Below the pieces are notes generated by a model, which was given only the letters and a program-made list of their open reading frames with translations, made no database searches and was not told the DNA's origin. Below, one piece after another: positions 646-36,544 of a DNA stretch of 44,433 nucleotides (the stretch's first letter is position 1; every line of letters begins with the position of its first letter). Position numbers and translations under genes: made by a program. Origin of the DNA: Paraspadella gotoi (Eukaryota; Animalia; Chaetognatha); NCBI GenBank assembly GCA_051294375.1, contig JBJCIZ010000447.1, positions 1 through 44,433 of the forward strand, read 5' to 3'.

Positions 646-1754
646 TTAAAATGAAGTCATCGTTATGATATTGGATTCCGGAGAAGGCAAAGTAAACAAT
701 CGGTTCTCCAAAGTAAATGGAGCATTTCGCAATGCTTCCACCTGACGTTTTCTGATGGCGTTATAAAAACGCCGATTCCTCCACAGCATAATCTTTTCTT
801 CGATCTAAAAAAAAGTTAATTTTATTTATATAAAATTTATTATAGTACAAGCTAAATAAAAATAAAGATGAATGTTCAGTTATTAATTAATAAACGTACG
901 TAGCCGCGAAGGAATTTCTTGAAAAGAAATGTTAAGATGATTGTCAATACGAAGAGAATGACGATTGCCGCTAGCGAAGAAGCGACAATCGTCCCATTTC
1001 CGACGACAGAGGCCGAGGTAAGATTCGTATTATTTTGGGTCGTGTTCGTCGACACCGTGACAGGGATACGTGACGGTGAGGAGGTGAGAGTGTATGAGAG
1101 AGGTGGTTTAATGGAAGATGAAAAATTAGAAGTTGCGGTCGTCGAGGACGAGGAGGGTGAGAGGGTGAGAGGAGGTTCAACCGAAGATGGAAAATCAGAA
1201 ATGCCTTGTGACGACGAGGAGGGTGAGGGGGTGAGAGTGGGGGTGAGAGTGTGTGAGAGAGGTGGTTTAACGGAAGATGAAAAATCAGAGTTTTTTGTCG
1301 GTGAATTCCATCTTGAGGACGAGGAGGGTGAGAGGGTGAGAGGAGGTTCAACTGAAGACGAAAAATCCGAAATGTGCTGCGACGACGAGGAGGGTGAGGG
1401 GGTGAGAGAGTGTGAGAGAGGAGAGTCAACCGAAGACGAAAAATCGATAGTCACTGAATCTTGTTTCGATGACGGGGAGTGGGAGAATGTGGGAGAGTGT
1501 GAAAGAGGAGGGTTAACGAAAGACGTATCATTAGCATAAAGTGACGGTGTGAGAGAAGGGGGGGAGTTGGTATTCATTAAAGAGGTGGTTGGAGACTGGG
1601 GCGAAGGTGAGGTCGGTAAAGTGGAAGTGTTCAAAAAATGTAAAACGCAATTATTTTCGATTTTTCTTTTATTACATATTTGAAAACTTTTAAAGATAGT
1701 AAAATTACATTTCTCTTGCGCGAATTTGATACAGTCTTTTTTTAACGATGCCAT
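646..1754 (-). CDS. Mucin-like single-pass membrane protein (4-Cys N-domain, Ser/Thr/Pro repeat stalk, TM helix, spliced tail)
   Basis: Exon 1754-900 and exon 804-646 in frame. Repeated SDFSSSV(E/K)PPL..TLSPSSSS units and TM segment IVASSLAAIVILFVLTIILTFLF followed by KK. A further frameshifted exon at ~538-434 is possible. Confidence 0.75.
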
Positions 1755-2265
1755 TTTAAATTGTATTATTTTACGTATTTATTATGAGGGTCCGTTCAGT
1801 TCCTATGATTTAATCGATATTTTGTGACTAACAAAAAGCTAAGTTAAAAAAAAAAAAAACCCTTATCTTTTCAATAAATAATTAAGTGATGTTCCACTTC
1901 GGTTTTGAACCTATTCGATTGGAGCTTTCCACAAGAAAAAAGGACCAAAATTTTAATTTTATTTTAGAGTAGTGAGTCGAGTTATGTTTCTGTTTTCACT
2001 TAAGTGTCCTTTTTCCCTCACTTTTTTCGTCACATAAAATTCATGAGGAACGATCTTTGTAAGTGTATTTGGACTTCACTTCAGTTTAACAGTTTTTCTA
2101 TTTTTAATTAAAGCATATGTGTCTAACTTGAAATTTCCTAAAATATCTAAGTTATTAAATCAAATTATCAAATTACCAAATTATCAAAGTCGCATTATAT
2201 ATATATTTGTCTTCGTTAAATCTAACAATGAAGTCGATTTACCGATTCAGTTCTTTTTTTCTTCT

Positions 2266-3430: not shown

Positions 3431-3923
3431 TTAATGAATATTAAGTAGTAATGTTTTCAGTTTAAAAAGATAATTTGTATCATTATTATGAGAAAACATT
3501 CTTAAAAAATATAAAATTTGCAAACCACATGCTTTTGAGTTGTCATGTTGTGATTTCAAGTGCAATCTTTTTAATGATAAAGAATGTTTTGTACAAAAAT
3601 CAATTATGACTTTATTAACGTGTGGAAAATCTTCCTCTAACTTTTCTAAAGGATCGATAATCACTGCAAAATTATTTACAAAATAAATGCATAATATTAA
3701 CCAATGACCGATTTTATCATATTCAGATTCTTTTGAAGATAAGGTATTTATTATTATTGCTAGTTTATGTCTTTTTTGTTTAATAAGGTTAATGTTACAC
3801 ATTTCATCATAAGAAAGAATAAGTTTCCCTTTTAAAATAGTATTATAACTTAATTTATCTTTTTTTTAAAAATCGTTTTAAGTCGTTATCAGAAGTGATT
3901 AGGTTATTTTCAGTCAAGTCCAT
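3431..3923 (-). CDS. Adenain-like (C5) cysteine maturation protease, apparent frameshift in an A8 run near 3860
   Basis: IIINT...GHW (His), IIDPL (Asp), Q...S.ACG (oxyanion Gln, catalytic Cys). The upstream ATG at 3923 is 121 nt from the ORF start at 3802, i.e. out of frame by one base. Confidence 0.85.
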
Positions 3924-3952: not shown

Positions 3953-6431
3953 TTATTGTTCTACGTCAACTGATTGGTAGACCAATCGATTAGATTTTAT
4001 TATTAATGATCGAGCCTGTGTGAAAAACACTGTAACATTTAAAACTGTGGTTAAAGGCTCTTCAAATTCTAAATATAAACGATATTGGTTTCCAGGATTT
4101 ATTGTTGACTGTAGCGATTGTGCATTATCTAAATCGACGTTATTTACAGAGGGTGAAAGCTTAAAAGGCAATATGAATTTTGTATTTAGAAAGGCTTGTA
4201 ATGTAAAGTCCTCTGTTCCTTTTCTGTTAAAAAATTAAATGTATCGCACACGTGTTGATAGGACGCTTTTTTTTGCCCATTCATTGACGAAGGAGTAACC
4301 ATCCACGTCGCCTGAGTAAATAAATTCATATTTTATATTCGTTTTATTGTACTTATTATTAGAGCAAAAACTTTACCTGAGTTTCCGAGAGGGAGATGGA
4401 ATTTTTCGAACTTATTCCCACTTCAAGAAACGCGCGAGCTAATTTTTCCCTACCGAAGACTTGGATCGACGATGCGAATGTGCCGTTGTGAACGGTGTTT
4501 TTATGGAGTAAGACGAACGGCGAAGGAAAAACTATTTTTTAGTGTCAGAGAAAGGAATTTGTTTGTAATTCCTGAAGGTAAAAATAAATTAAAGATTGTA
4601 CAAATGAATATTAATGAATAAATAATTAATAATAATAATAATAATAATTAATTAATAAATAAAAATAAATAACCACCTGTTTCTAGTGAGTAAACCTTTG
4701 CAAATGTAGCCTGAAAGAGAAAACAAAATTACTAAATTAAGTAATAGAAATAACAGTAATAATTAATAACTTACATTGTAATTTACTTGTATGGGCCTCG
4801 CGATTAAGGAATTTTCGATCCTTTCCAAGAGATTTTGGCGTAACAGAATTACGTTGGCGTATAAACAGCAGGCTTGTAAGATATATATTATATAAATAAT
4901 TATTTTGTGAGTTATTAAGAAAAAAAGAAAAAAAGAAATTACATTTGACTGTGAATTTCGGTTTTAATCCAGCCGTTTGCGTGATGAAGTATCTTTCGGC
5001 TGAGATGAAGAGAGAGAGTAAGACATTTAATGACTTTTTTTATGAATTAAATTCAAAAAACACTTACGACTTGTCAAATAAAATTGAAGTGTTATGTCGA
5101 GATTGTTAGGTAAAAGACAGTTCATCGTCGAAAGAGGAGAGAAGAATGACAAACGAAATTTGAGGGGTTTTTGTTTATGCAGTAAAATAGTGCGTTTGCC
5201 GTTTTCTTGGTTTGGGGACTTGCTTTGAGACTCCGCCTATTGGTAGGAGTAGCCTAACTCAGTAAGGTGGTTAAGAAATTTTAATCAAGCACCTACTCAA
5301 ACGAAAATTTAAACTTTATTAAAATTTTGAATAGACAAAAAATTTAATATTATTCCATACCCTATATATTAATTTTTATATTATTTATAAATTTTTTGGT
5401 TTTTTTTTTATAATTTTTAAGATAAGATTTGGGTAGCCTTTGCAAAAGTTGTCTATACAAAGTATAATTTCTTTTTTTTTTAATATTTTTATCATAAGTT
5501 TTTTTTTAAATTCTTTTTTTACCTGAAAGTAGACTTCAAGACTAAAGTTTGAACCCCCCGCCTATTGATTTTAATTTCATAGTAGATTTCTACCTATGTC
5601 TTTGATTCGAAGAAAGTGGAGACATTCTGTGCTGCCAATATCGTTGAGGTCCTCAATATAGTACTCAAATTCACGGAGAAAAGATTGTCGAGCCGCAAGA
5701 CTATATTTAGTAATGTAATTAAGTCGAGCTATGATACCGTAGTTTGTTGTCGTACTAAAATTAAAAAAATATTATATATATATATTGTTAAATATTTTTA
5801 AGAAAAGAAATTATTTTAATTAATACTTTAACTAATTGTGAAGATCCAATGTTTAAAGAGCAACTATCGAAGAGACTTTGGGCCATAAGGGGAAGTGTGG
5901 ACACGTCAAATGTGGTTAAAGCGCTTCCATCTTCTTTAGTGGCCACAATTTCGATGTCCAGGAAAAAACGATGCGGATTTAAAAATGCTGTTTTCTCGTT
6001 GAATCTGAAACTGATGGCGCGTCCTCCTACGGAGAAAGAGTTTGTTATGATCCTTTCCTTTTCGTTACGTTTAGAGATCAACAAATGTATTGTTTACCTT
6101 TTGAAAGTTCAGTTGTGTCCTCTTTCATTGGTAGAAGGAGAGAAACAACAAAAATGTGAGAGTTAAAGAAAGAAAGTTATAAGATAATTCTTTCTTTATA
6201 TTTAATTACCTGGGTTTATGCGTACATAACCTAATGAGAGAAAGAAAAATTACATGTATAGTTATNNNNNNNNNNATAGCTTGAAGTTGTATTATTCATA
6301 TTCATACCGTTAAAAAGACATCCGTCTTCGAGATAAACTTTGTTGTTCAAAAGGGAATCAATCTGTGGAGTTATAACAGGGGTTGGATCTGTGAAGGTAG
6401 GAGCGTCACCGAATCGTATGCTTTCCCCCAT
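3953..6431 (-). CDS. Major capsid protein (double jelly-roll, Polinton type), about 12 exons, with apparent frameshifts
   Basis: Exons 6431-6308, 6230-6210, 6121-6098, 6026-5827, 5754-~5594, 5236-5068, 4999-4943, 4872-4775, 4710-4677, 4571-~4378, ~4311-4250, ~4223-3953. Polinton MCP-like segments: ISFRF...FLNP..FFLDIEI..TKEDG...QSLFDSCSLNIG, NYGIIARLNYITKYS, LLPNNLDITLQF, HNGTF, FILPFKLSP and C-terminal YRLYLEFEEPL...VTVFFTQARSLIIKSNRLV. Frame breaks near 5750-5830, 5240-5600 and 4500-4540. Confidence 0.8.
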
Positions 6432-22645: not shown

Positions 22646-22930
22646 TCTTAAATACTTTTTGTTTAAAAAAAAAGCCTTTAGTTAACCTATTAATATTTTC
22701 CCTCCTTATCCCCCCCCTCCCATACATCCACACACTTTAACTACTTACAAAAACCTTTTTTTTTTTTTTTTGTTCGCTTGTTTGTTGTTGGTTTTTTTTT
22801 TCAATTTAAATGTGAAAAAATAGATAAATTAATTATCAAAATTGAGAAACATCAAAATTTTTTGGGGTTAGTCAAAACTTTAGCAGACCCTAAACATATT
22901 ATTACGCAAAAATTAACAAAATTGGATGAG

Positions 22931-25522
22931 ATGGCGTTTCCAGAAGAAAGGTTGGTGGTTAATTCGGGAACTGATTCCTTGACGAGTGAAGAGACAGTGA
23001 AAAAACTTTTTTCTCAGGCCGTTTCTAGAACTAACGAAAATGAGGGTGAAAAGGTTAAGGTAATGAGACAAATTAATTCAATTATTGATAAAATTACAGC
23101 GAGCAAGGAGGAAAGAGATGCTTTAAAAGAAAGGATTCGCCTCGGGGTTTTGAACTGTAATGAAGAAGGAGGGAATAATGAACTCTCTAATTTTATCCTT
23201 GAAAATTTGCATCTTGTGAAAGCACTGGCTTTCCCAAATTATGAGTGCCTAATCGCTTTTGTTAATGAAAGTAAAAAGAAAAATAGTTTACTCCCCAAAA
23301 AAAAAGGAAAGGCAACTATCCTTTATCCCCTACCCTTAACACCTGTATATTACTTAAATCTACTCCAAGCCAATCCGCAGCTTAGTAGATTCGAAAATGT
23401 AAGATTTAAAAATTTACTTAAAGCATTTTTAAAAGCCGAAATTAACATCTCCGATCCAACGGGTCAATTATCCCAGATCAGAGAATTCGCTCGCCGTAAC
23501 GCGAATTTTTTTTTAGGCCAAAAACAAAAAAGTTTATCTTTATCGGAATTGTTTGAAAGTAATCCAACAGAAACTCGCCATGTTTCTGCATCTGTCGTGG
23601 AAACTGTAATAAAAAAGATTGGCACTCAAAAGGGAGTTCATTATAATCTCATTAACAATGAAGATAAAATCGGAATGAACTTTTCATGCTTTCATTGTGT
23701 CTCAGCAGCTCCGCTGAGTGAAGAGGCAAAAAATGGGTGTTCTTTTAGGTTCAATCCAAGCATCCTTGCTTCCTTTAATATCTTTCGAGCTAAGGTTCTT
23801 GAAAACAGTCTTGAGGTAAAGGATCACTTTTTGAATAATCATTCCCCTCTCGGCAAATATGGTGATTTTTCAAAGGCTCAATCCTCCAAGGCAGCAAGTG
23901 AGCATGGTTTGCTTCTCGTTTGCGGTCGGTGTCACATCCAATCTCAAAAATATCTTTCCACCTCTATCGTCTGTTGTGAAAAGTGCTTGGTCCGACATGT
24001 TCTATTGCTTCACAGTAAGGAAGATCGTTTTCTTTCCTTTTATCAACATCTTAAGAGTGAGTATTACTGGGATGCTGTGAAATCGGACATAAGTGAGAAT
24101 TACTTTCTGGTTNNNNNNNNNNTATGTCTTTGCATATTTCCCAACAAGACGGAAAGGGATAAGCACATGGCAAATCTTTGCATTCCAAGGATGGTGAGCG
24201 GTTCATACTTTTATGGTAATCCCTATATTTTCGATAGGTCTTTTGAAACCTATACATCCGTCGCGGCAAGGAAAGATAAAGAGGCAGAAATTTTGACAAA
24301 GCAGGTTAGGTTGTTCTTAAATAAAATGAGTTCGAAATCTGTTTATGTTCCCATTTCGGAGAAGTCAGTGGAAGAGAGTTTAGAAGGTGACGAGAGCGAT
24401 GGTAAGGACGTTGAAGGCGAGGCAGAAAAAGAAAGGGAGAAGAATCGCAAGCTGTCGTTCAAAAGCATGTTGTCCATGTCAGTTAGGAACGTCGTATCGA
24501 AGAAACAAGCACCGGCCTTAATTAGCAACAGCTCGATCGCAACGGTCCAGAGTGAGAACATGGAAACGTTAGAGACTGTGGCGACAGTACCTAGCTGTAC
24601 AGAAGAAGCAGTTGTGGAATCAGTACAAAGCAGCAGTGAGCAGCCGAGTTGTTGTAGTCAGGATATAGCTTCAGTGCCACCGACTTTTGTAGAAGAGACA
24701 GAAAACAAGCAGAAAGAAAGGCAGAAAAAAGGAGAGACAGAAACAGAGACAGAGGCGGAGACAGAGACGGAGACTATTAAACGCAGAAAAGAAAGAGCAA
24801 GTTTTTTTCTTGACAATGAAGCAAAAGAGAGTCGGAAAGAAGGTCAGAAAGAAAGTCGGAGAGGTGAAGGTAAGGAAGGTAAGGAATCTCGTAAGGAGAG
24901 GTCTGTAGTCAAGGGAAAAAAGAGGGAAAAGAATGAGCAAGAGTATATTGACAAAGGCGAAAAAGGAAAGGTTAGAAAAGGAAATGGGAAAGAAGAAAAA
25001 GAAAAAGAAAAAGAAGGCCAAATTACGGAGTCTCAAAAGAAAGATAAAGGAAAGGAAAGGGCGGAGAAGGAGAGAGAGAGAGAGAGANNNNNNNNNNGAG
25101 AGGGAGAGAGAGAGAAAAAGAGAAGGGAGAGAGAGAGAGAGAGAGGTAGGGAAAAGAAGATCGAAACCGAAAGAAAAAAAAGAAAAAGGAGGGAGAGTGA
25201 GGATAGCAAAGAAACAGAGAGACGAGGCGAGAAAGGGCGATTGTCGGAGGCAAAAAAGAAAGTCGAAAAAAAGGACAATAAACATTTGAGAAATTGTTTT
25301 AAAACACAACCGAGTAAAAACGATAAAAAGAAGNNNNNNNNNNACTCAGAAGCTTCTTCTTCCCACTCCTCATCTCGCTCTTCTTCCTCCTCTCTTTCCT
25401 CTTCCTCTTCTTCTTCCTCCTCTTCCTCCTCCTCAGAAAGCAGTGTTAAAAGTTCAAATATTAGTAGAAAAGGAAAAAAAAAAAAATTGAGAGTAATCGA
25501 GTCTGATTCAGATTCGAATTAA
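22931..25522 (+). CDS. Large Cys/His-rich (putative zinc-binding) protein with Glu/Lys/Arg-rich and poly-Ser tail
   Basis: Long ORF from MAFPEERL. CFHC, H...H, CGRCH, CCEKC..H...H and C.IF....RDKH...C clusters. Three N gaps inside. Confidence 0.7.
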   Translation: MAFPEERLVVNSGTDSLTSEETVKKLFSQAVSRTNENEGEKVKVMRQINSIIDKITASKEERDALKERIRLGVLNCNEEGGNNELSNFILENLHLVKALAFPNYECLIAFVNESKKKNSLLPKKKGKATILYPLPLTPVYYLNLLQANPQLSRFENVRFKNLLKAFLKAEINISDPTGQLSQIREFARRNANFFLGQKQKSLSLSELFESNPTETRHVSASVVETVIKKIGTQKGVHYNLINNEDKIGMNFSCFHCVSAAPLSEEAKNGCSFRFNPSILASFNIFRAKVLENSLEVKDHFLNNHSPLGKYGDFSKAQSSKAASEHGLLLVCGRCHIQSQKYLSTSIVCCEKCLVRHVLLLHSKEDRFLSFYQHLKSEYYWDAVKSDISENYFLVXXXXCLCIFPNKTERDKHMANLCIPRMVSGSYFYGNPYIFDRSFETYTSVAARKDKEAEILTKQVRLFLNKMSSKSVYVPISEKSVEESLEGDESDGKDVEGEAEKEREKNRKLSFKSMLSMSVRNVVSKKQAPALISNSSIATVQSENMETLETVATVPSCTEEAVVESVQSSSEQPSCCSQDIASVPPTFVEETENKQKERQKKGETETETEAETETETIKRRKERASFFLDNEAKESRKEGQKESRRGEGKEGKESRKERSVVKGKKREKNEQEYIDKGEKGKVRKGNGKEEKEKEKEGQITESQKKDKGKERAEKERERERXXXXEGEREKKRRERERERGREKKIETERKKRKRRESEDSKETERRGEKGRLSEAKKKVEKKDNKHLRNCFKTQPSKNDKKKXXXXSEASSSHSSSRSSSSSLSSSSSSSSSSSSSESSVKSSNISRKGKKKKLRVIESDSDSN

Positions 25523-28263: not shown

Positions 28264-28899
28264 ATGGATACAAAAGACTTTAAAAAANNNNNNNNNNAAA
28301 CTGTGTGTCTTCTAGCTGTGCTAAAACTTTTAAGTGACTTTTCCAACGATGTAGTAAAGAAAGACATCATCAATCAAGAACTTGAGAAGGAACTTCTACT
28401 TCGTCAAAGTCGGACGCACAAGACTTCTCCGATCTGAGTTCGCACTTCTTCACTCGACNNNNNNNNNNGGACAAGACCCGAAGGGCTCGCGAGTTGATTC
28501 TCCTTCAGGATTTTATTCAAAATCTTAATAAAATGTTAAGTTTTTATTTATCACTATTTACTAATTGACTTTTTGTTAAAGAGGAAAATTATTTATTAAA
28601 TTAAATAATCTTTTAACTTTTGTTTTTTATTCAGCATTTGTGAGGCTGATGATCGCTCTCGTTCGAAGGAGAAAAACCAGCGGAAGTTCGCCACATTTCG
28701 GGAGGATTTGAGGAACGACACCCCCGAGGTATCCAGAACCGAGGGAGTAATCTTAGAACGTTGCGCAATACTTAAATATATTAATAACTCTAAGGACTCT
28801 GATCGATCTACTTCTTATGGCTTTGTCGAAGTGTATTCCTGTAAAGGGAAAAATGTTTATTTGTCAATGAACAAACAAGATAATTTTCTTGAGAATTGA
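28264..28899 (+). CDS. Hypothetical protein, divergent paralogue 3
   Basis: KTVCLLAVLKLL resembles KSVSLRGAKLFL/RTVSLKGVIFFL. Last exon has GVILER...YGFVEVY resembling GVVLER...YSVVYV. N gaps and a stop at ~28435 make the model uncertain. Confidence 0.45.
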
Positions 28900-28957
28900 T
28901 CAACTTTGTTTTTATATTCGTTATTTCTTTTTTCGCCTTAAAAATAAAATAAAAAGA

Positions 28958-31900
28958 ATGGAAAATTATCAAAATGATGAAGTCGATTCTGACGATGAAA
29001 ATGAACTGATTAATCAACTCTTAAATTCTCCTCCATTAGAGGAAGTAGACGAAAATACCTTGAAAATAATTGGTTATTTAACCGACGATATCTTCTCTGG
29101 GGCTAGCAGTAAATATATTCTTACGCGAGACTGGAATTCTGAGCGCAATAAAAGACTACTGCTTGAAACAGAATTAAGATGTTACTTAATACATGTCCAA
29201 ATTTATTTACGTCGACTCTTATCACCGAGAGACACGCAACAGCACCCGCTCCGTTACTTAGTCTGGATCGCTACAGGTGTGTAATAATTGGTAAATAGTA
29301 GTAGTAATAATAATAATAACATTAATTATTACTGTACAATGCGAAGGGATTAGAATAGATTGGGACAAGAGAAACTAAATTAAATATTATTTTTCCGTCG
29401 TTAATTCACTAATTCACTCTTTTTTCTTTCTTTCTTTCTTTCTTTCTTTTTCTCTTCTTTCTTTCTTTCTTTTTTATTTTACTCACAAAACATTTTTTTT
29501 TTCCACAGAAGTCGAATTCGGAAAAGCCAGCGACTTAAGTGATAGGATTTCACACTGGGTTTCTTATCGGAATCAACATTTTCTCCTCGACGTTCTCGAA
29601 GAAACCGAATCCTTCATCTCAACCATATTGCAGGCTTTTACAAATTTTGTTATAGAACATGTTTATTACATGAGTGACTTAAGAGAAAGTGGGTGGACCT
29701 ACTTGTTTTTAAAATCTGTACATATCAGACATGCAGCTGTTCCTTCTACAAATAATTTGATAAGATATGGAGGTTCTAATGATGAAAGGATATTCAAATC
29801 CGAATTACAATCCGCCTTTTCAAGAAACGTTTTTGATACGGATAACTATATTTTAAACAATGAAAAAATGAAATTGTGTGTTCTGTACGGGATAATGCTA
29901 AGTCTTGAAAACAAATTTGGGGATAAAATCTTAACTCGTGTTCCTAAAAAATTTGCCAAGGAAGTCGTGTCAGCGATTAAAACGGGTGATTTGATAAAAA
30001 TTGACAATGAGGGGTTAAAGATTAATGATTTTTCGAAACTGGAAAGGCTTAATTCTCCGATACCAAATTCTTTAATTAAATTTTACCCAGAATTAATTTT
30101 ATTGAAAGGAATATCTATTAACGTATTTAAAATCCGCAAGGCTCTTGATTTTAAAGCCTATTCAATCTTTCCAATCGCGTTGAGCTCACATCATACTGAT
30201 GATAATTATCACCAGGTTGACTTATTAATAGACACTCCAGAAATCAGAGAAAATCCTGTCGAAAACATAACCGGTTTAGCATATAACGAAAGTGATCATA
30301 TACTATTTATATCTAACCTACCAAGACTTTTACAATCATTTCAATCATCTGTTGAAAAGAAATTTAATTCGAATAGATATAGATTTGTCTGTCGCAAATG
30401 CATTAATTTATTCACAAACGAGCGGGCTTATTCTGATCACGTCGAGCTATGTCGGGCATTTTCAGCCGGACAGGGTCGACGCGAGGCTATAAATAAGACC
30501 GTTCATGTGACAGAAGTGGAAAATCCCTGGACCGGTGTACTTGAAAAAAATGTTCTTCAATTTGAGAGAAGCATGCTCTATAAAAAAATTAAACCACTAT
30601 TTTTCTCTTGCATGGATTTTGAGGCCACCACTAAACCGATTGATCATTCCAAAAACTACCCGCATATTCAGACTAACGAACCACAACCGCCTAATAGCTC
30701 AATCGCAGAACAGAAAGCATTATCTTACAGTTTAACACATAAGAGTCTATATGAAAAGAATTTTCCCTTACCAAAAGAGTTAAGGACTCCTCGGTGTAAA
30801 TTTTTAGATGAAAGAATACAAACAGAAAAAGATTTTTTCATTCAACTTCTTTTAAATCTAAGAGACGATGCTTGGAAATTGCATCAGTTTATTCAAAATG
30901 TTTATAAAATGGATAAGGGAATACCAAAATTACATGAATTAACTCTAGAGGAAAGAATAAAATATAACATGCAAGATTTTTGTGATTTATGTGGACGTAA
31001 ATTTGATTCGAAATCTAAAAATAAGTATACAGGAAGAGTGTATACCTTGAAAAAAACGATAGACCATTCTCACATTTATTCAGGAAATACAGAATTAAGA
31101 TTTTTAACTTGCGCAGGATGTAATTTAAATCTTGTCGACTTTTTGCCACATAAAATTAATCATAATATCTTTTGTCATTTTGGAAGTCACTACGACGGAA
31201 TTTTCCTTCTTCAGGCTCTTGTAGAGGCTGCCACACATTGCACTAACGTATCACATGACGTAGTAGGAAACCCTATTTATAAACCTATTATAAGAGAAGC
31301 CCCTAAAGTGCTTTTCAAGGGCAATGAAAACACCCCGCTGTCAATTCGGTTCAAATTTTCTTGCCCCTTCCCCTCCTCTTGTCCAAAATGTTCTTCTTCA
31401 AAATATGAGCGGCGTGAATTTGCAAGGATTAATGGTTACCCTCTGAAGTGCTTTTCTGACAGATACTTGGTTATAGTTGACAGCTTTTTGCTGATCCCTC
31501 ATTCTCTTTCTTCAATTATATCGGATTCTTACACAGCTGCATATAACAGTGATGAGGACTCTCTCACAGAAGTATTTTCATCCACTTACGAATTTGTTAA
31601 AGATTGTGGTTTTACAGATTCCTTTTTTGAATTTTTAATACGTCAAAAAGTTGTGATGCCTTTTAAGCTGCTTACATCTTTTGAGGCAATGGAAAATGTC
31701 AAAGAAATCCCTCCCATAGAAGATTTTTACTCTGAACTGAGTGGCAAGAAAGAAATATCTCAGGAGGAATATGATGTTTTTAAAAGCGTTTGGCAAGGAT
31801 TAAATGCTACCAATCTCTTTCATGTAATATTTTTTTATAATATTTTGGATTCTCTGAACTTAGCCGACGCTATCTCTTTCTACTTTGAAAAATTACATAA

Positions 31901-34059
31901 CATCGTAAATTTTTATCCATCTCATTTTTTAACAATATCAAGTCTCGCACTTACGTCTGCTTTATTTCACACAAGAGATCCAATCAATCCAGAAAAGAGA
32001 CTTCAACTGGAAATGCTGGATTCTGAAACTTATCAAATTTTTCAAAAGAACTTGGTATGATTATTTTTATTATTTTTTTTAAAAATAACTTATTAAGACT
32101 AATTAATACATCATTTCAGTTAGGGGGTTTTGCAGCAATTTTTTCTTTTCTTGGAGAGTACGATTTTGATACTGAGGACGAATTGGCGACAGCATCTTAC
32201 ATAGACGCTAATGGTAAACAACAGTATTCCTATAAAATAAATTAAATTAAATTAATTTTCTAAAATGTATTTTTTCTCTGTTAGGACTCTATCCCCACGC
32301 AATGACTTCTTTCCTACCCCACAGTGGTTTTGAAATACTTCAAAAAACATCCCACCCAGAAATTTTTAATGTTTTAAGTGAAAGACTGATTAATTGTGAT
32401 GTGGACTTTTTTCATAATGACCTAACCAAAAATCATATAGGATATTTATTTGTGGTAGAAACACAAACAGACATAGACGAAGCGAGTGAAATCAATCTTG
32501 ATTTATCGTTTTTCCCAATCAATAAAAAAGTGAAGTCTTTTGAATTACATCCTGATCAGATCCGCTCAGCTGAGAAACTAGGTCGTCGAATAGACAAGGA
32601 ACTCGGGAAGTTGATTTCTACAGTTCACACCCATCCCACCCAAATATCGGATTTCACAGAAAATCTTTTGTACTCATGTATTTTCCATGGAATGAAAATC
32701 ACAAAAGTGATTAAAATAGTACGTTTTAATTCTTATCGTTACCTAAATAAGTATATTCTATATCTCCAAGACCAAAGATCAAAAACAAAATCTAAAATTT
32801 TAGGTAAACTAGTAAAAAATTTGTCCAACTCGATTTCAGGAAAAATGCATGAACAGAGATCTAAGTATCTTAATGCATCCATTTGTCTTGGGAAAAAGAA
32901 TTTTTTTAAAGAAGTAGCTAAAATCCATTTTTTTGATTTCCGTAAAATATCTCAAAATGCGGTGGTTATACTTAAAGACGGCTTAAGTATGAAAGAACGT
33001 AATGCCCCTTATTTTAGCAGTCGTGTGTATTCCATCTCCAAATTATTCTTATGGCGATCTTACTTTACTTATGTTGCTAATATTGCTAAAAATGGCGATG
33101 TTAATTCTCGTCTCGCTATCACAGGTATATATATATTTGAATTATATTGATTAACAAAACACCCAAACTTTCGGATTCTTGCAATTGATTAATTATTTAT
33201 CTATTTATTTATTTATTTATTATCCAAAAAAGATACTGATAGTCTCCTCTTCTCATTTATCAAGAAGAAGTCTGATATAGAAAGAAACGAATTAATTGAA
33301 TTAACACAATCAAATCAAAAGATCGGATTAACCCAAAGCCTCACTGGAGATAGTTGGGCCAATATTTATCTACAAACTTTCGCCTCTCACCTCGATTTTT
33401 CTTGCTTAAATGAGGTATTTTTTATCTATTATTTATTTCATTTTTTTTTCAAAAATTATTACTAGTGTTAATATTGTCATTTGTTGTTTAGGATTCGTTT
33501 ATATATCAATGCTTGATAAAAAAGGAACCGCAATTGCTTAAAGTTATGTTGGAATTCTTAAGTCAATCAACCAAAAATAGGGCCGGTCTTTTCAAAGATG
33601 AACTTAACACAAACATGGTCAAGGTAGATTTAGTATAACTTNNNNNNNNNNTAATAATAACTATGATAATAGTTGTAATAATATTACTCTATTTAGACGG
33701 TCTTCGCGACTTCTGTTAAACAATATTCAATTCTTACATATCCCAAGCTTCCTGACTTTCCCTTCAACCAACTAAATGAAAATGTTAAATTATCAGTTGC
33801 AAAATCTAAAGGAGTTAAAAAAAATGTATTTTTAAATAATATTACTATTGACGATTATAAGAATGCAATACACACTGACGAACCAACGCGGAAAGTCGCA
33901 CAACACGGGATAAGAAGGAGAAATCAACGGATATATATCGTTAGAGAATATAAAAAACTTCTTACTCGGTTTACATCTAAAAGAATATATCGAAATTCTG
34001 ATAATGATGGGAGATTCTTCTTCACTTATCCTCTACATTTGAAAGATGCCTTGCCTTAA
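28958..34059 (+). CDS. polB: Protein-primed family B DNA polymerase (Polinton pPolB), 7 exons, ~1491 aa
   Basis: Exons 28958-29276, 29509-32054, 32120-32213, 32285-33124, 33233-33414, 33492-33623, 33697-34059. All introns are GT-AG and phase-consistent (4476 nt total). Motifs: ExoI MDFEAT, ExoII HFGSHYD, ExoIII YNILDS, LGG, PolA YIDANGLYP, PolB KNLSNSISGK, PolC TDTDS, GLFKDE, KQY, KSKGVKK. Also N-terminal ESGW/SINVF/CRKC..H..C and an internal CDLC..DHSH..CAGCNL (endonuclease VII-like) segment. Confidence 0.95.
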
Positions 34060-34154
34060 TTCTGACTGTTCGTTTATTTGTTTTATTTTGCAATAGATTT
34101 ACTAAAAATAAGGCCAAAAATAAGGACGTTTTTTTTTAATCTTGTTGGGGAGAG

Positions 34155-35898
34155 ATGCCTGACGTTAATCAGACCTCGGACCTTTCAGCAATGGAAAAGC
34201 GTTATGACGATTTCTTCCGTTTGCCGTTAGGTAAATAATTTGACATTCTAATACTTTTCCTTTCAGGTTTTATTACACCTTTTTCTTTAATTAGATCAAG
34301 ATCTAGTTAGTGCTATAAGACTATCATACGATCGAGTAGCGCTGTTTGACACCGACGAAAAAAACGAACCGATCATTGAGATTCGTCGCGTGGATAACGA
34401 AATCAATCGCAATTGGAAGGAGGCAAGCTTTTTCTATATTTGCTTATTCATTTCACCTTAATACTATTTACGAATTATACTTAATCCTTTTTTTTTTAGT
34501 CGGGATTCACAACTAGTGACTGTCGCCGTTGCTGGGCTCTTCCACTGTGGCACCTCATACTACTAGCCAAAGAGGGTGCCTTTCAGATTTTGCAGGTTAA
34601 ATTGTTTGTTAATTAATTTGCCTACTTGTCTCTTTCTTGCTTTCTTATTTCTTTCCCAATCTCTTTTCTTAAGATCGCGATAAATGAGCTCAATAAAGAG
34701 CTCAACGCTGACAATGAATTCCACAATGACCCCAATCGCCTCCGCGAAATTTGTGAGGTATTTTTTTCTTATGCACCTACAAATTCAGTACAAGTGTCTT
34801 TAAAAATTTGTATTTTCTCAGAAATACCTCGTCAAGAGGTCGAGAGTTTCGCGTAGCTCTTATGCAATTGAGCTTTCTTATGAGGAAGAGAGGAAGTCTA
34901 ACTCAGGCACAGTCCCTCGAGGCTATTTCGCCCAAGTACGACGCATCGTCAACACCGGGAACGAAGACGATGTTCAGTTCGTTTCGCCGTTTCACTCCGG
35001 ATCTCCGGGAATGCGGGCGCAAACCCACATCTGGACCAGGCTTTACCAGGTTATTTTTGTTACACAATACATACACATTTATAAATACATTTCAATTAAT
35101 TTCTTATATCACTTTATAGGCGATGTTTTGTCTGCCTTACCCAGGTAGACATACCTACGACGACTTCAAGGAGAACGAGGCCGAGCATCAACAAGCTCAA
35201 CTTCCACCTTCCGAATCTGGCGACTGGTTTAATTACAGTAATCAGAAACGGTCGTCCTCTGAGTCATGTGTGCCTTCAAAATACCGCAAAAACTTCTTCG
35301 GGGAGATGGCGATTCTCGCCCTCCAAGCTCACTTCGATGAATGTCTCAACCCGGAGAGATGTGACACTTGTGAAAGTGGCGTCACGGTCAAGATGATCGA
35401 GGATTGGGACGAGTAGGTTTCATTGATCTGCTATCTATTTTCTTTGTCTACTCTATTAAACTATCCCGATATGTCACTTTTAATCTCTCCCCTCCCTCAT
35501 TTAGAACTCATCGAGGAGCGACGCTGTACAAGAAGTACAGCGGCGTCACCCCCATGGACATCATCGTCAATGAGAAGAAGTGGATGGTTGCCAAAGGTTT
35601 GTGTTTTTTTTTNNNNNNNNNNTTTTTTACTTTATAGGATTTATTACTTATTTACTTTGTACAAAATTACTTATCCTCCCACTATCTTTTTTTAGATACA
35701 GGACCGCGGGCTCGTACGACTTCATCGACTGGCAGTCTCCCCGATCCTCTCCTCGTGTCTCTGACCCCCACCGAACGGATGCAAATTCGCCTCGCTGAAA
35801 GGAAGAGGAAGTATGATGATGCGCTTCTCTCTGGAGAAATCGCCGGTTCTTCACGTTCAACGATGACGCAGCCTCTTTCCAACGGATTTCTGAATTGA
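34155..35898 (+). CDS. 8-exon, ~399-aa protein, putative tandem PC4-like ssDNA-binding protein with Cys/His cluster
   Basis: Exons 34155-34230, 34295-34422, 34500-34595, 34674-34757, 34822-35049, 35120-35412, 35505-35596, 35696-35898 give an open 1200-nt frame. Intron 2 has a GC donor. The gene model is well supported. The PC4-like call is an inference from two (I/Q)(I/V)RR...W..L segments and the position next to PolB. Confidence 0.7.
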
Positions 35899-36544
35899 AA
35901 ACGCCAACCTCTCGCCGGTTCGCTAGCTGACTGTGACTAATTTAGGACAAACTTCTTAGTACTTTGACATAACAAAATATTTGACTTTAAACCACGTATT
36001 GACTTCAAGGTTGGCTTGACTTAATTTACTGACACAAACGAGTGACTTGACTATCGGTCAGCTAGAGAATAAAAACACTGACAGACTGACTGACTATCTA
36101 AAAAAACTAGCCAACTAGCCTTCGTATTCATATTTTATTTTTTGTAAGGAAGCTATATTTTTTCCTTACACATATATCTTTGGGTATTTCTTAATTTAAG
36201 CAATTTTAAAAAAACGCGATTTTAAATAAATCTTTTCTTAGTATTATCTTTTTTTNNNNNNNNNNNNNNNNATATTTAGCAATTATTATTACTATCAACG
36301 TGAAAGTTTATTTTGTTGTGGTTTTCTGTTATTTTAATAGTATTCCAGTATTGAATTCTCTTAAACAAATAAATTGTATATACTTTATATAAAAAAGTTC
36401 AATGTTACAACTACCTAATTTACACGTAACACAACTACCGATTAATCATGCGAATATCGTCGAATTAGAATATCGTTTTAAAGAAAAACCTACATTTGTT
36501 AATTGTATCCAATTACTTTACCTATCGCACCAAGGGAAAACTTA

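What the first reader, a model, noticed from the sequence alone, without database searches (positions are those of the whole stretch)
32054..33240. Introns split the polymerase active-site motifs
Intron 32214-32284 interrupts motif A inside the Gly codon of YIDAN-G-LYP. Intron 33125-33232 interrupts the first Asp codon of motif C (T-D-TDS). Intron 32055-32119 sits just before LGG. Each unspliced read-through hits a stop, so replication would be strictly gated by host splicing. Five of the six introns lie in the polymerase domain, while the 2.5-kb exon covering the N-terminal and exonuclease regions has none, suggesting non-random intron gain.
Basis: partly seen in the sequence, partly recalled or inferred. 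Interest (0 to 1): 0.75.

Follow-up and report, generated by a model that had tools for sequence, protein, structure and literature searches.

The report
Introns target virus polymerase catalytic motifs
A virus-like jumping element in a eukaryote has its DNA polymerase gene cut by six host-type introns, the one in active-site motif A seen spliced out in sequencing data, and distant relatives are cut again and again inside the same short catalytic motifs, which likely reflects targeted intron gain rather than an on/off switch.

Summary
Observation confirmed. An intact 1,491-codon Polinton/Maverick-type polymerase gene (28958-34059) has six GT-AG introns, each with a stop if retained. An RNA-bearing public run shows exact spliced joints for 3 of 6, including the motif A intron; the motif C intron is supported indirectly. 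A relative (L001, 30-39% identical) shares two sites exactly, has a motif A intron 2 nt away and one at ExoIII. Among homologs, 75 of 103 clade members that reach motif B break inside it, against 0 of 31 canonical Polinton polymerases, at about ten different positions, with at least 32 state changes on a tree. The element's integrase has 3 of 4 introns within 6 codons of its D, D, E residues. So the pattern is catalytic-motif hot spots across a clade, not an intron-free exonuclease half. 'Gating' is true but trivial (any frame-breaking intron does it); regulated retention is not shown. I favour nuclease-driven, homing-like gain (0.4), but no nuclease was found in any intron. Not found in print in 10 searches; this scan has noted the same phenomenon before on other DNA (six earlier findings).

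The parts
28958..29276 (+). pPolB exon 1 (likely start codon at 28958)
   Evidence: open frame; joined to exon 2 in run X6; the start codon is inferred
29277..29508 (+). intron 0, 232 nt, phase 1, codon 107, non-conserved N-terminal region
   Evidence: GT..AG joint in X6/X7, depth 8
29509..32054 (+). pPolB exon 2, 2,546 nt: N-terminal domain, ExoI-III, and a Cys/His EndoVII-like insert near 30940-31130
   Evidence: profile match to PF03175-bearing P0001, probability 99.9%, E 1.3e-31; insert: PHROG HNH only at E 0.22, motif scan
32055..32119 (+). intron 1, 65 nt, phase 0, directly before the conserved x-G-G of the YxGG-type motif
   Evidence: splice signals and frame; 1 residue from a highly conserved column; no spliced joint assembled
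32120..32213 (+). pPolB exon 3, 94 nt, ends in motif A
32214..32284 (+). intron 2, 71 nt, phase 1, inside motif A
   Evidence: exact GT..AG joint in X6/X7, depth 3, beside an intron-holding contig of depth 8
32285..33124 (+). pPolB exon 4, 840 nt, includes an uninterrupted motif B
   Evidence: 274 homologs at E<=0.001
33125..33232 (+). intron 3, 108 nt, phase 1, inside motif C
   Evidence: X6 contigs break at both ends; same position and phase in L001 3644-3740
33233..33414 (+). pPolB exon 5
   Evidence: tblastn to L001, E 2e-5
33415..33491 (+). intron 4, 77 nt, phase 0
   Evidence: same position and phase in L001 3917-4013; ORFs P0006 and P0012 end at this site; no spliced joint assembled
33492..33623 (+). 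pPolB exon 6
33624..33696 (+). intron 5, 73 nt, phase 0, between the KDE and KxY motifs; holds an N gap
   Evidence: GT..AG joint in X6/X7, depth 4.1
33697..34059 (+). pPolB exon 7 with KxY and KG motifs, to the stop codon
8398..10233 (-). integrase-like gene with four GT-AG introns (9947-9882, 9679-9411, 9288-9221, 9155-9079); three lie 2, 1 and 6 codons after D94, D162 and E198
   Evidence: the introns give a 451-codon open frame with D-x35-E spacing; identity by motif only, no library hit on single exons; not covered by the read calls
16600..18165 (-). packaging-ATPase-like exon; a splice acceptor falls inside Walker A (exon starts at S-E-A-G-K-S); Walker B-like FIFDD further on
   Evidence: sequence; upstream exon not fixed; no library hit
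3434..3865 (-). cysteine-protease-like ORF (H, D, Q, C pattern) with no intron seen across the catalytic residues
   Evidence: motif reading only; no library hit
3956..6093 (-). multi-exon gene, possibly the major capsid protein
   Evidence: position and exon pieces; not confirmed

Best explanation
The window holds a Polinton/Maverick-like element whose intact polymerase gene is split by six GT-AG introns, three of them seen spliced out, and in its clade such introns pile up in catalytic motifs, most likely because site-specific nucleases cut the intron-free motif so that any intron landing inside it is favoured. Shown: the introns, their splicing for 3 of 6, two sites shared exactly with a distant relative, and ORF breaks concentrated in motifs A, B and C across homologs. 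Inferred: that those breaks are introns (checked on DNA only for L001; two homologs read through an in-frame pyrimidine-rich insert and resume the motif), that they were gained and lost many times, and the driver. In the favoured model, co-resident element families compete in one nucleus; an endonuclease of one family recognises a 15-40 bp stretch of a conserved motif in another; an intron anywhere in that stretch destroys the target while splicing keeps the protein; break repair copies the intron-bearing allele, as in homing; once the nuclease is gone the short intron is lost precisely and the cycle can start again at a neighbouring base. Splicing is taken to be constitutive. Odds: real introns 0.97, motif clustering not chance 0.85, this driver 0.4.
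For: Exact joints in X6/X7 only. L001 shares introns 3 and 4 by position and phase, has a motif A intron 2 nt from intron 2, has one at ExoIII, and lacks introns 1 and 5. Of 150 listed homologs, 115 end before position 1300 of the reference and 62 of these end in an 18-codon motif B window, against 99 of 829 in a simulation with random cuts and the same detection limit (rows are related, so the p-value overstates). With hand labels, 75 of 103 clade rows at risk break in motif B, 9 of 15 at motif C (2 of these look decayed, not intronic), 8 of 23 at the S-K motif, 11 of 108 over the 166 codons between A and B; canonical polymerases 0 of 31 in motif B. The residues after the breaks fit splice donors at about ten distinct positions within 13 codons (read by hand), a span like a homing-nuclease site (recalled). 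Tree: 90 rows including the window form one clade (SH-aLRT 100); motif B state changes at least 32 times among 84 labelled rows (three shuffles printed: 48, 50, 49), and close sisters differ. Integrase: 3 of 4 introns within 6 codons of D, D, E; p 0.003 over the gene, 0.04 over the core. At least two more PolB families sit in the same organism, with different insert lengths. The clade has fewer indels between motifs A and B than intron-free relatives (1.0 and 0.5 against 1.8 and 1.75 per 100 aa at 30-39% and 40-49% identity), which is against loss by imprecise deletion. Precedent: mirusvirus spliceosomal introns carry homing endonucleases with target-gene preference (PMC12768974, passages and section 8).
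Against: No nuclease was found in any intron: the 6 window PolB introns are 65-232 nt, the 4 in L001 86-147 nt, and 0 of 30 homolog ORFs with long tails or leads hit a nuclease family. A motif scan of the window found no GIY-YIG and only the EndoVII-like insert inside PolB itself; intron-free canonical polymerases carry that insert too (P0001, P0109), and in P0010, P0042 and P0058 its D-H pair reads H-H although P0042 and P0058 break in motif B. The model needs separate nucleases for several motifs and genes. Introns 0 and 4 are not at conserved columns, the protease-like motif has no intron, and other genes have many introns with no known link to motifs. Homolog sites come from protein ends, not DNA; only the first break in each ORF is visible; short fragments are under-detected, which lowers the count between motifs A and B; a few unbroken rows could be cDNA.
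Confidence: 0.4

Rival explanations
1. Retention bias: introns arrive anywhere, are lost by imprecise deletion where the protein tolerates it, and survive only in invariant motifs, as proposed for inteins.
For: Needs no gene-specific nuclease, so it covers polymerase, integrase and ATPase alike. It is the classic model for inteins (PMC4760082, passages).
Against: It predicts indel scars in variable regions, but the clade has fewer indels than intron-free relatives. It also makes neighbouring sites in sister lineages (P0058 and P0041) need a rare precise loss plus a new gain.
Confidence: 0.2
2. Lateral spread and sliding without a nuclease: divergent families in one nucleus can recombine only at conserved motifs, so motif introns spread by gene conversion and shift by a few bases.
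For: Several PolB families share the host; the same site recurs in distant subclades (17 changes for the commonest site); motif A sites differ by 1-2 nt.
Against: Without a drive, conversion removes introns as easily as it adds them; no sequence similarity between introns at shared sites was found.
Confidence: 0.15
3. Regulated gate: tissue- or stage-specific retention limits replication, as with the P element third intron (recalled).
For: All 6 retained introns carry stops; introns 1 and 4 appear only unspliced in X6, and retained contigs outweigh spliced ones at introns 2 and 5.
Against: A gate does not need motif positions or shifting sites; X6 seems to contain DNA, and spliced contigs at depth 3-4 are near the assembly floor, so missing joints say little.
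Confidence: 0.1
4. Chance plus proto-splice preference and search bias: Gly-, Lys- and Asp-rich motifs hold AG|G contexts, and local alignments tend to stop at motifs.
For: 4 of 6 window introns follow an exonic AG; the single-gene p-values are only 0.015-0.04 and post hoc.
Against: AG|G-type sites are as dense in the intron-free exon (2.7 per 100 nt) as in exon 4 (2.4); the simulation with the same pipeline put 12% of ends in motif B against 54% observed.
Confidence: 0.1
5. A decayed copy whose insertions only look like introns.
For: AT-rich, microsatellite-laden sequence and 24 N gaps.
Against: Exact spliced joints, no stops in 7 exons, sites shared with L001, and D-x35-E spacing that appears only with the predicted integrase introns removed.
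Confidence: 0.02

Closest known systems
Polintons/Mavericks (polintoviruses, adintoviruses) with PF03175-type pPolB
   Same: Protein-primed family B polymerase homologous along the exonuclease and polymerase domains, beside integrase-, ATPase-, protease- and possibly capsid-like genes.
   Different: Core genes of intact vertebrate Mavericks are described as intronless (PMC8097293, passages). Here polymerase, integrase and ATPase are spliced, the polymerase lies in a separate divergent clade that mostly escapes Pfam, and no terminal inverted repeats were seen in the window.
Intron-rich mirusviruses and their spliceosomal homing introns (PMC12768974)
   Same: Nuclear DNA virus genes with many short GT-AG introns, positions varying between relatives.
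   Different: There introns are enriched in virion genes and some encode endonucleases; here they are ORF-less and cluster in catalytic motifs of replication and integration enzymes.
Inteins and group I introns in conserved motifs of replication proteins (PMC4760082)
   Same: Several insertion sites a few residues apart inside catalytic motifs and P-loops.
   Different: Those are self-splicing and often carry their own nuclease; these depend on the host spliceosome and carry none.
Introners in dinoflagellate polinton-like elements (PMC12166617)
   Same: Spliceosomal introns inside polinton-like elements.
   Different: Introners are families of similar sequences; the introns here share no similarity beyond low-complexity runs, and the passages read report no motif preference.

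Membership tests
Polinton/Maverick | protein-primed family B DNA polymerase | tested here: met
   HHalign 99.9% to P0001, which carries PF03175 at E 8e-23; Exo, A, B, C and KxY columns conserved. Fold search of exon 4 alone gave only phi29 polymerase at E 0.16.
Polinton/Maverick | retroviral-type DDE integrase | tested here: met
   D94, D162, E198 with D-x35-E spacing in a 451-codon frame; motif reading rests on recalled family knowledge; single exons gave no library hit.
Polinton/Maverick | packaging ATPase | tested here: inconclusive
   Walker A and B-like motifs at 18165-16600; no library hit.
Polinton/Maverick | adenain-like cysteine protease | tested here: inconclusive
   H, D, Q, C pattern at 3865-3434; no hit in Pfam, PHROGs or PDB sequences.
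Polinton/Maverick | double jelly-roll major capsid protein | tested here: inconclusive
   candidate multi-exon gene 6093-3956; Atlas hits under 0.9 only.
Polinton/Maverick | terminal inverted repeats and target-site duplication | tested here: inconclusive
   the 25 longest inverted repeats listed lie in microsatellite tracts; the window may not reach the ends; no genome is held.
Polinton/Maverick (as described in vertebrates) | intronless core ORFs | tested here: not met
   six polymerase and four integrase introns.
Spliceosomal homing introns (mirusvirus type) | GT-AG spliceosomal ends | tested here: met
Spliceosomal homing introns (mirusvirus type) | endonuclease ORF inside the intron | tested here: not met
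   introns 65-232 nt; 0 of 30 homolog tails or leads hit a nuclease family.
Introners | family of sequence-similar introns | tested here: not met
   blastn of 10 introns against the window gave only self and low-complexity hits; the host genome could not be searched.

The most novel reading that the evidence does not exclude
A widespread, overlooked clade of nuclear Polinton-like viruses uses ordinary spliceosomal introns as shields against, or relics of, homing nucleases: catalytic motifs of polymerase, integrase and ATPase are hot spots where host-type introns are born and lost over and over, a visible route of targeted spliceosomal intron gain.
Probability: 0.3. Interest if true: 0.85.

Novelty: new variant of a known kind. 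Interest (0 to 1): 0.62.

Why it matters
How new spliceosomal introns arise, and why some sites are hit in parallel, is a long-standing open question. This clade offers about ten intron positions within 13 codons of one invariant motif and dozens of gains or losses, which makes the competing models testable on public data. It also means that ORF- and Pfam-based screens miss these elements: 0 of 13 window pieces and few homolog fragments gave a family hit, so a whole branch of Polinton-like viruses is probably undercounted.

Tried and rejected
No whole genome is held, so copy number, flanks and host introns could not be compared. No holder was listed as RNA on record; X6 is a guess that its joints support. 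Pfam and PHROGs on single exons gave nothing above cut-off. Word-seeded protein searches found 1, 2 and 0 relatives, so the N-terminal half could not be surveyed as exon 4 was. Three scans of viral contigs found no relative; the metagenome scan gave 1 locus from 487 pattern matches. The exon 4 model (pLDDT 74, pTM 0.51) had no PDB match at E<=0.001; sequence searches of solved structures gave nothing useful. Atlas searches gave no usable hit. Non-canonical joints (32785-32858, 34420-34498, 35436-35503) were set aside as paralogue or homopolymer effects. Tree: 7 labelled rows were left out as too short and 6 ambiguous-phase rows were not counted. Intron retention in X6 was not used as evidence of regulation because the run seems to hold DNA. 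The host was not determined. The Koonin 2024 review (PMC11426020) is not held; no supplements were read, so a mention of spliced Polintons there or in Repbase entries cannot be excluded.

Full report
What is in the window. The 44-kb window is an AT-rich scaffold with 24 N gaps and many microsatellites. It carries a family B polymerase on the + strand and, on the - strand, integrase-, ATPase-, protease- and possibly capsid-like genes, the gene set of a Polinton/Maverick. The big polymerase exon aligns with a canonical PF03175 polymerase at 99.9% probability. The other genes are named from motifs and recalled family knowledge; single exons gave no library hit. No terminal repeats were seen and no genome is held. 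Nine runs of one organism from three studies hold the stretch, four of them possibly its source, with very few differences. The host was not determined.

The observation. The gene runs from 28958 to 34059 in seven exons (1,491 codons, no stop in any exon). Six GT-AG introns of 65-232 nt interrupt it; each has an in-frame stop if retained. Intron 32214-32284 lies in the Gly codon of motif A and 33125-33232 in the first Asp codon of motif C, both at columns in the top 1% of conservation among 19 read-through canonical polymerases; 32055-32119 precedes the conserved G-G; introns 0 and 4 are not at conserved columns.

RNA evidence. Contigs of run X6 (X7 gives identical numbers and is counted once) contain 8 GT..AG joints in 28500-36200, three in the polymerase gene (introns 0, 2, 5) and five in neighbouring genes; the DNA runs X1, X5, X3, X8 and X9 show none. 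At intron 3 the contigs break at the exon edges around a separate intron-holding contig, which fits a spliced path that was not listed. At introns 1 and 4 the contigs run through unspliced. X6 has flat depth into non-coding DNA and records up to 25 kb, and spliced contigs have depth 3-8, so retention cannot be read from it.

Relatives on DNA. One metagenome locus was recovered (L001; 1 of 487 pattern matches), 30-39% identical in protein. It has four polymerase introns: at ExoIII, in motif A between codons (2 nt from the window's site), in motif C at exactly the window's position and phase, and at exactly the position of intron 4; it lacks introns 1 and 5. Reads also show two more polymerase families in organism A with other insert lengths.

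Relatives as proteins. A search with exon 4 gave 274 proteins at E<=0.001, of which the best 150 were examined. Most are fragments that stop abruptly. 62 of the 115 that end before reference position 1300 end in an 18-codon window at motif B, against 99 of 829 simulated random truncations passed through the same detection limit. With hand labels, 75 of 103 clade rows break in motif B, 8 of 23 at the S-K motif, 9 of 15 at motif C (2 look decayed), 11 of 108 between motifs A and B (under-detected), and 0 of 31 canonical polymerases in motif B. The residues after each break fit splice donors in different phases at about ten positions within 13 codons (my reading), and P0029 and P0121 read through an in-frame insert and resume the motif. 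About 15 rows switch from a non-homologous lead to homology at motif A, in three phases. Several ORFs start just after ExoII or within ExoIII. On a tree of the stretch upstream of motif B, the window and 89 others form one clade apart from 15 canonical rows; motif B state changes at least 32 times among 84 labelled rows, fewer than shuffled labels (48-50 in the three printed), so there is inheritance but much turnover. These sites are inferred from protein ends and only the first break is visible.

Other genes of the element. Four GT-AG introns give the integrase a 451-codon open frame with D-x35-E spacing, and three of them fall 2, 1 and 6 codons after the catalytic residues (p 0.003 over the gene, 0.04 over the core, post hoc). 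A splice acceptor falls inside the Walker A motif of the ATPase. The protease-like motif is not interrupted.

Mechanism. Dependence on host splicing is shown for this gene, and implies nuclear transcription. A regulatory gate does not explain the positions, because any frame-breaking intron would do. Proto-splice contexts explain the exact base but are as common in the intron-free exon. Retention through lethal imprecise loss, the classic intein argument (PMC4760082, passages), predicts indel scars, yet the clade has fewer indels than intron-free relatives. That leaves targeted gain or selection for an interrupted motif; I favour site-specific nuclease pressure among co-resident elements (0.4), by analogy with mirusvirus spliceosomal homing introns (PMC12768974, passages and section 8). 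Against it, no nuclease was found in any intron or tail, and the EndoVII-like insert in the polymerase also occurs in intron-free relatives; nuclease inserts in Polinton polymerases are known (10.1101/2023.08.22.554363, passages).

What is known. Intact vertebrate Mavericks are described as intronless (PMC8097293, passages). Introners in dinoflagellate polinton-like elements (PMC12166617, passages) and group I introns in cryptophyte elements (PMC12220804, passages) are different things. Passages of PMC8502044, 10.1101/2024.03.25.586562, PMC11244446, PMC10680173 and 10.64898/2026.10.13.758929 gave nothing on spliced Polinton core genes. Ten searches (listings only unless named above) found no report of motif-centred spliceosomal introns in these elements; subscription papers, the 2024 review, supplements and Repbase were not seen. 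The scan itself has six earlier notes of spliced Polinton polymerases on other DNA, one already remarking on shifted sites in the same motifs; my reading was formed before that look-up. What this window adds is spliced-read support for the motif A junction, a counted and controlled hot spot in motif B, and the same pattern in the integrase.

Verdict. Real feature; new variant of a known kind; interest 0.62.

Noticed in passing
window 11600-14970: Two near-identical copies of a multi-exon gene in tandem (about 11.6-13.1 kb and 13.5-15.0 kb) either side of an N gap, the second with frameshifts; an assembly duplicate or a real duplication.
   Followed up: no
window 32804-32839: The uninterrupted motif B region holds a 36-nt stretch that starts like a splice donor and ends like an acceptor; no read joint uses it.
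   Followed up: partly
window 32107-33545 (runs X3, X6, X8, X9): Two other polymerase families in the same organism, at depths 524 and 43 against 241 in X3, with longer or shorter stretches between shared exon blocks, so probably other intron sets.
   Followed up: partly
window 28535-28634, 34594-35695: Neighbouring genes up- and downstream are also spliced in X6 (five GT..AG joints, one with an alternative acceptor near 35505-35508); their function is unknown.
   Followed up: no
window 22694-25522: 942-codon open frame with Cys/His clusters and a long charged, low-complexity tail; no Pfam hit.
   Followed up: no
proteins P0042, P0196-P0203: Within one 90% cluster the same motif B site is followed by two different tails, so the intron head has diverged or been replaced quickly.
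   Followed up: no
protein P0113: A canonical-type Polinton polymerase fragment that also ends inside motif C with a donor-like tail, so such introns may not be confined to this clade.
   Followed up: no
window 876-1778: 300-codon Ser/Pro/Thr-rich ORF with repeats and a C-terminal hydrophobic stretch, like a membrane-anchored mucin-type protein.
   Followed up: no
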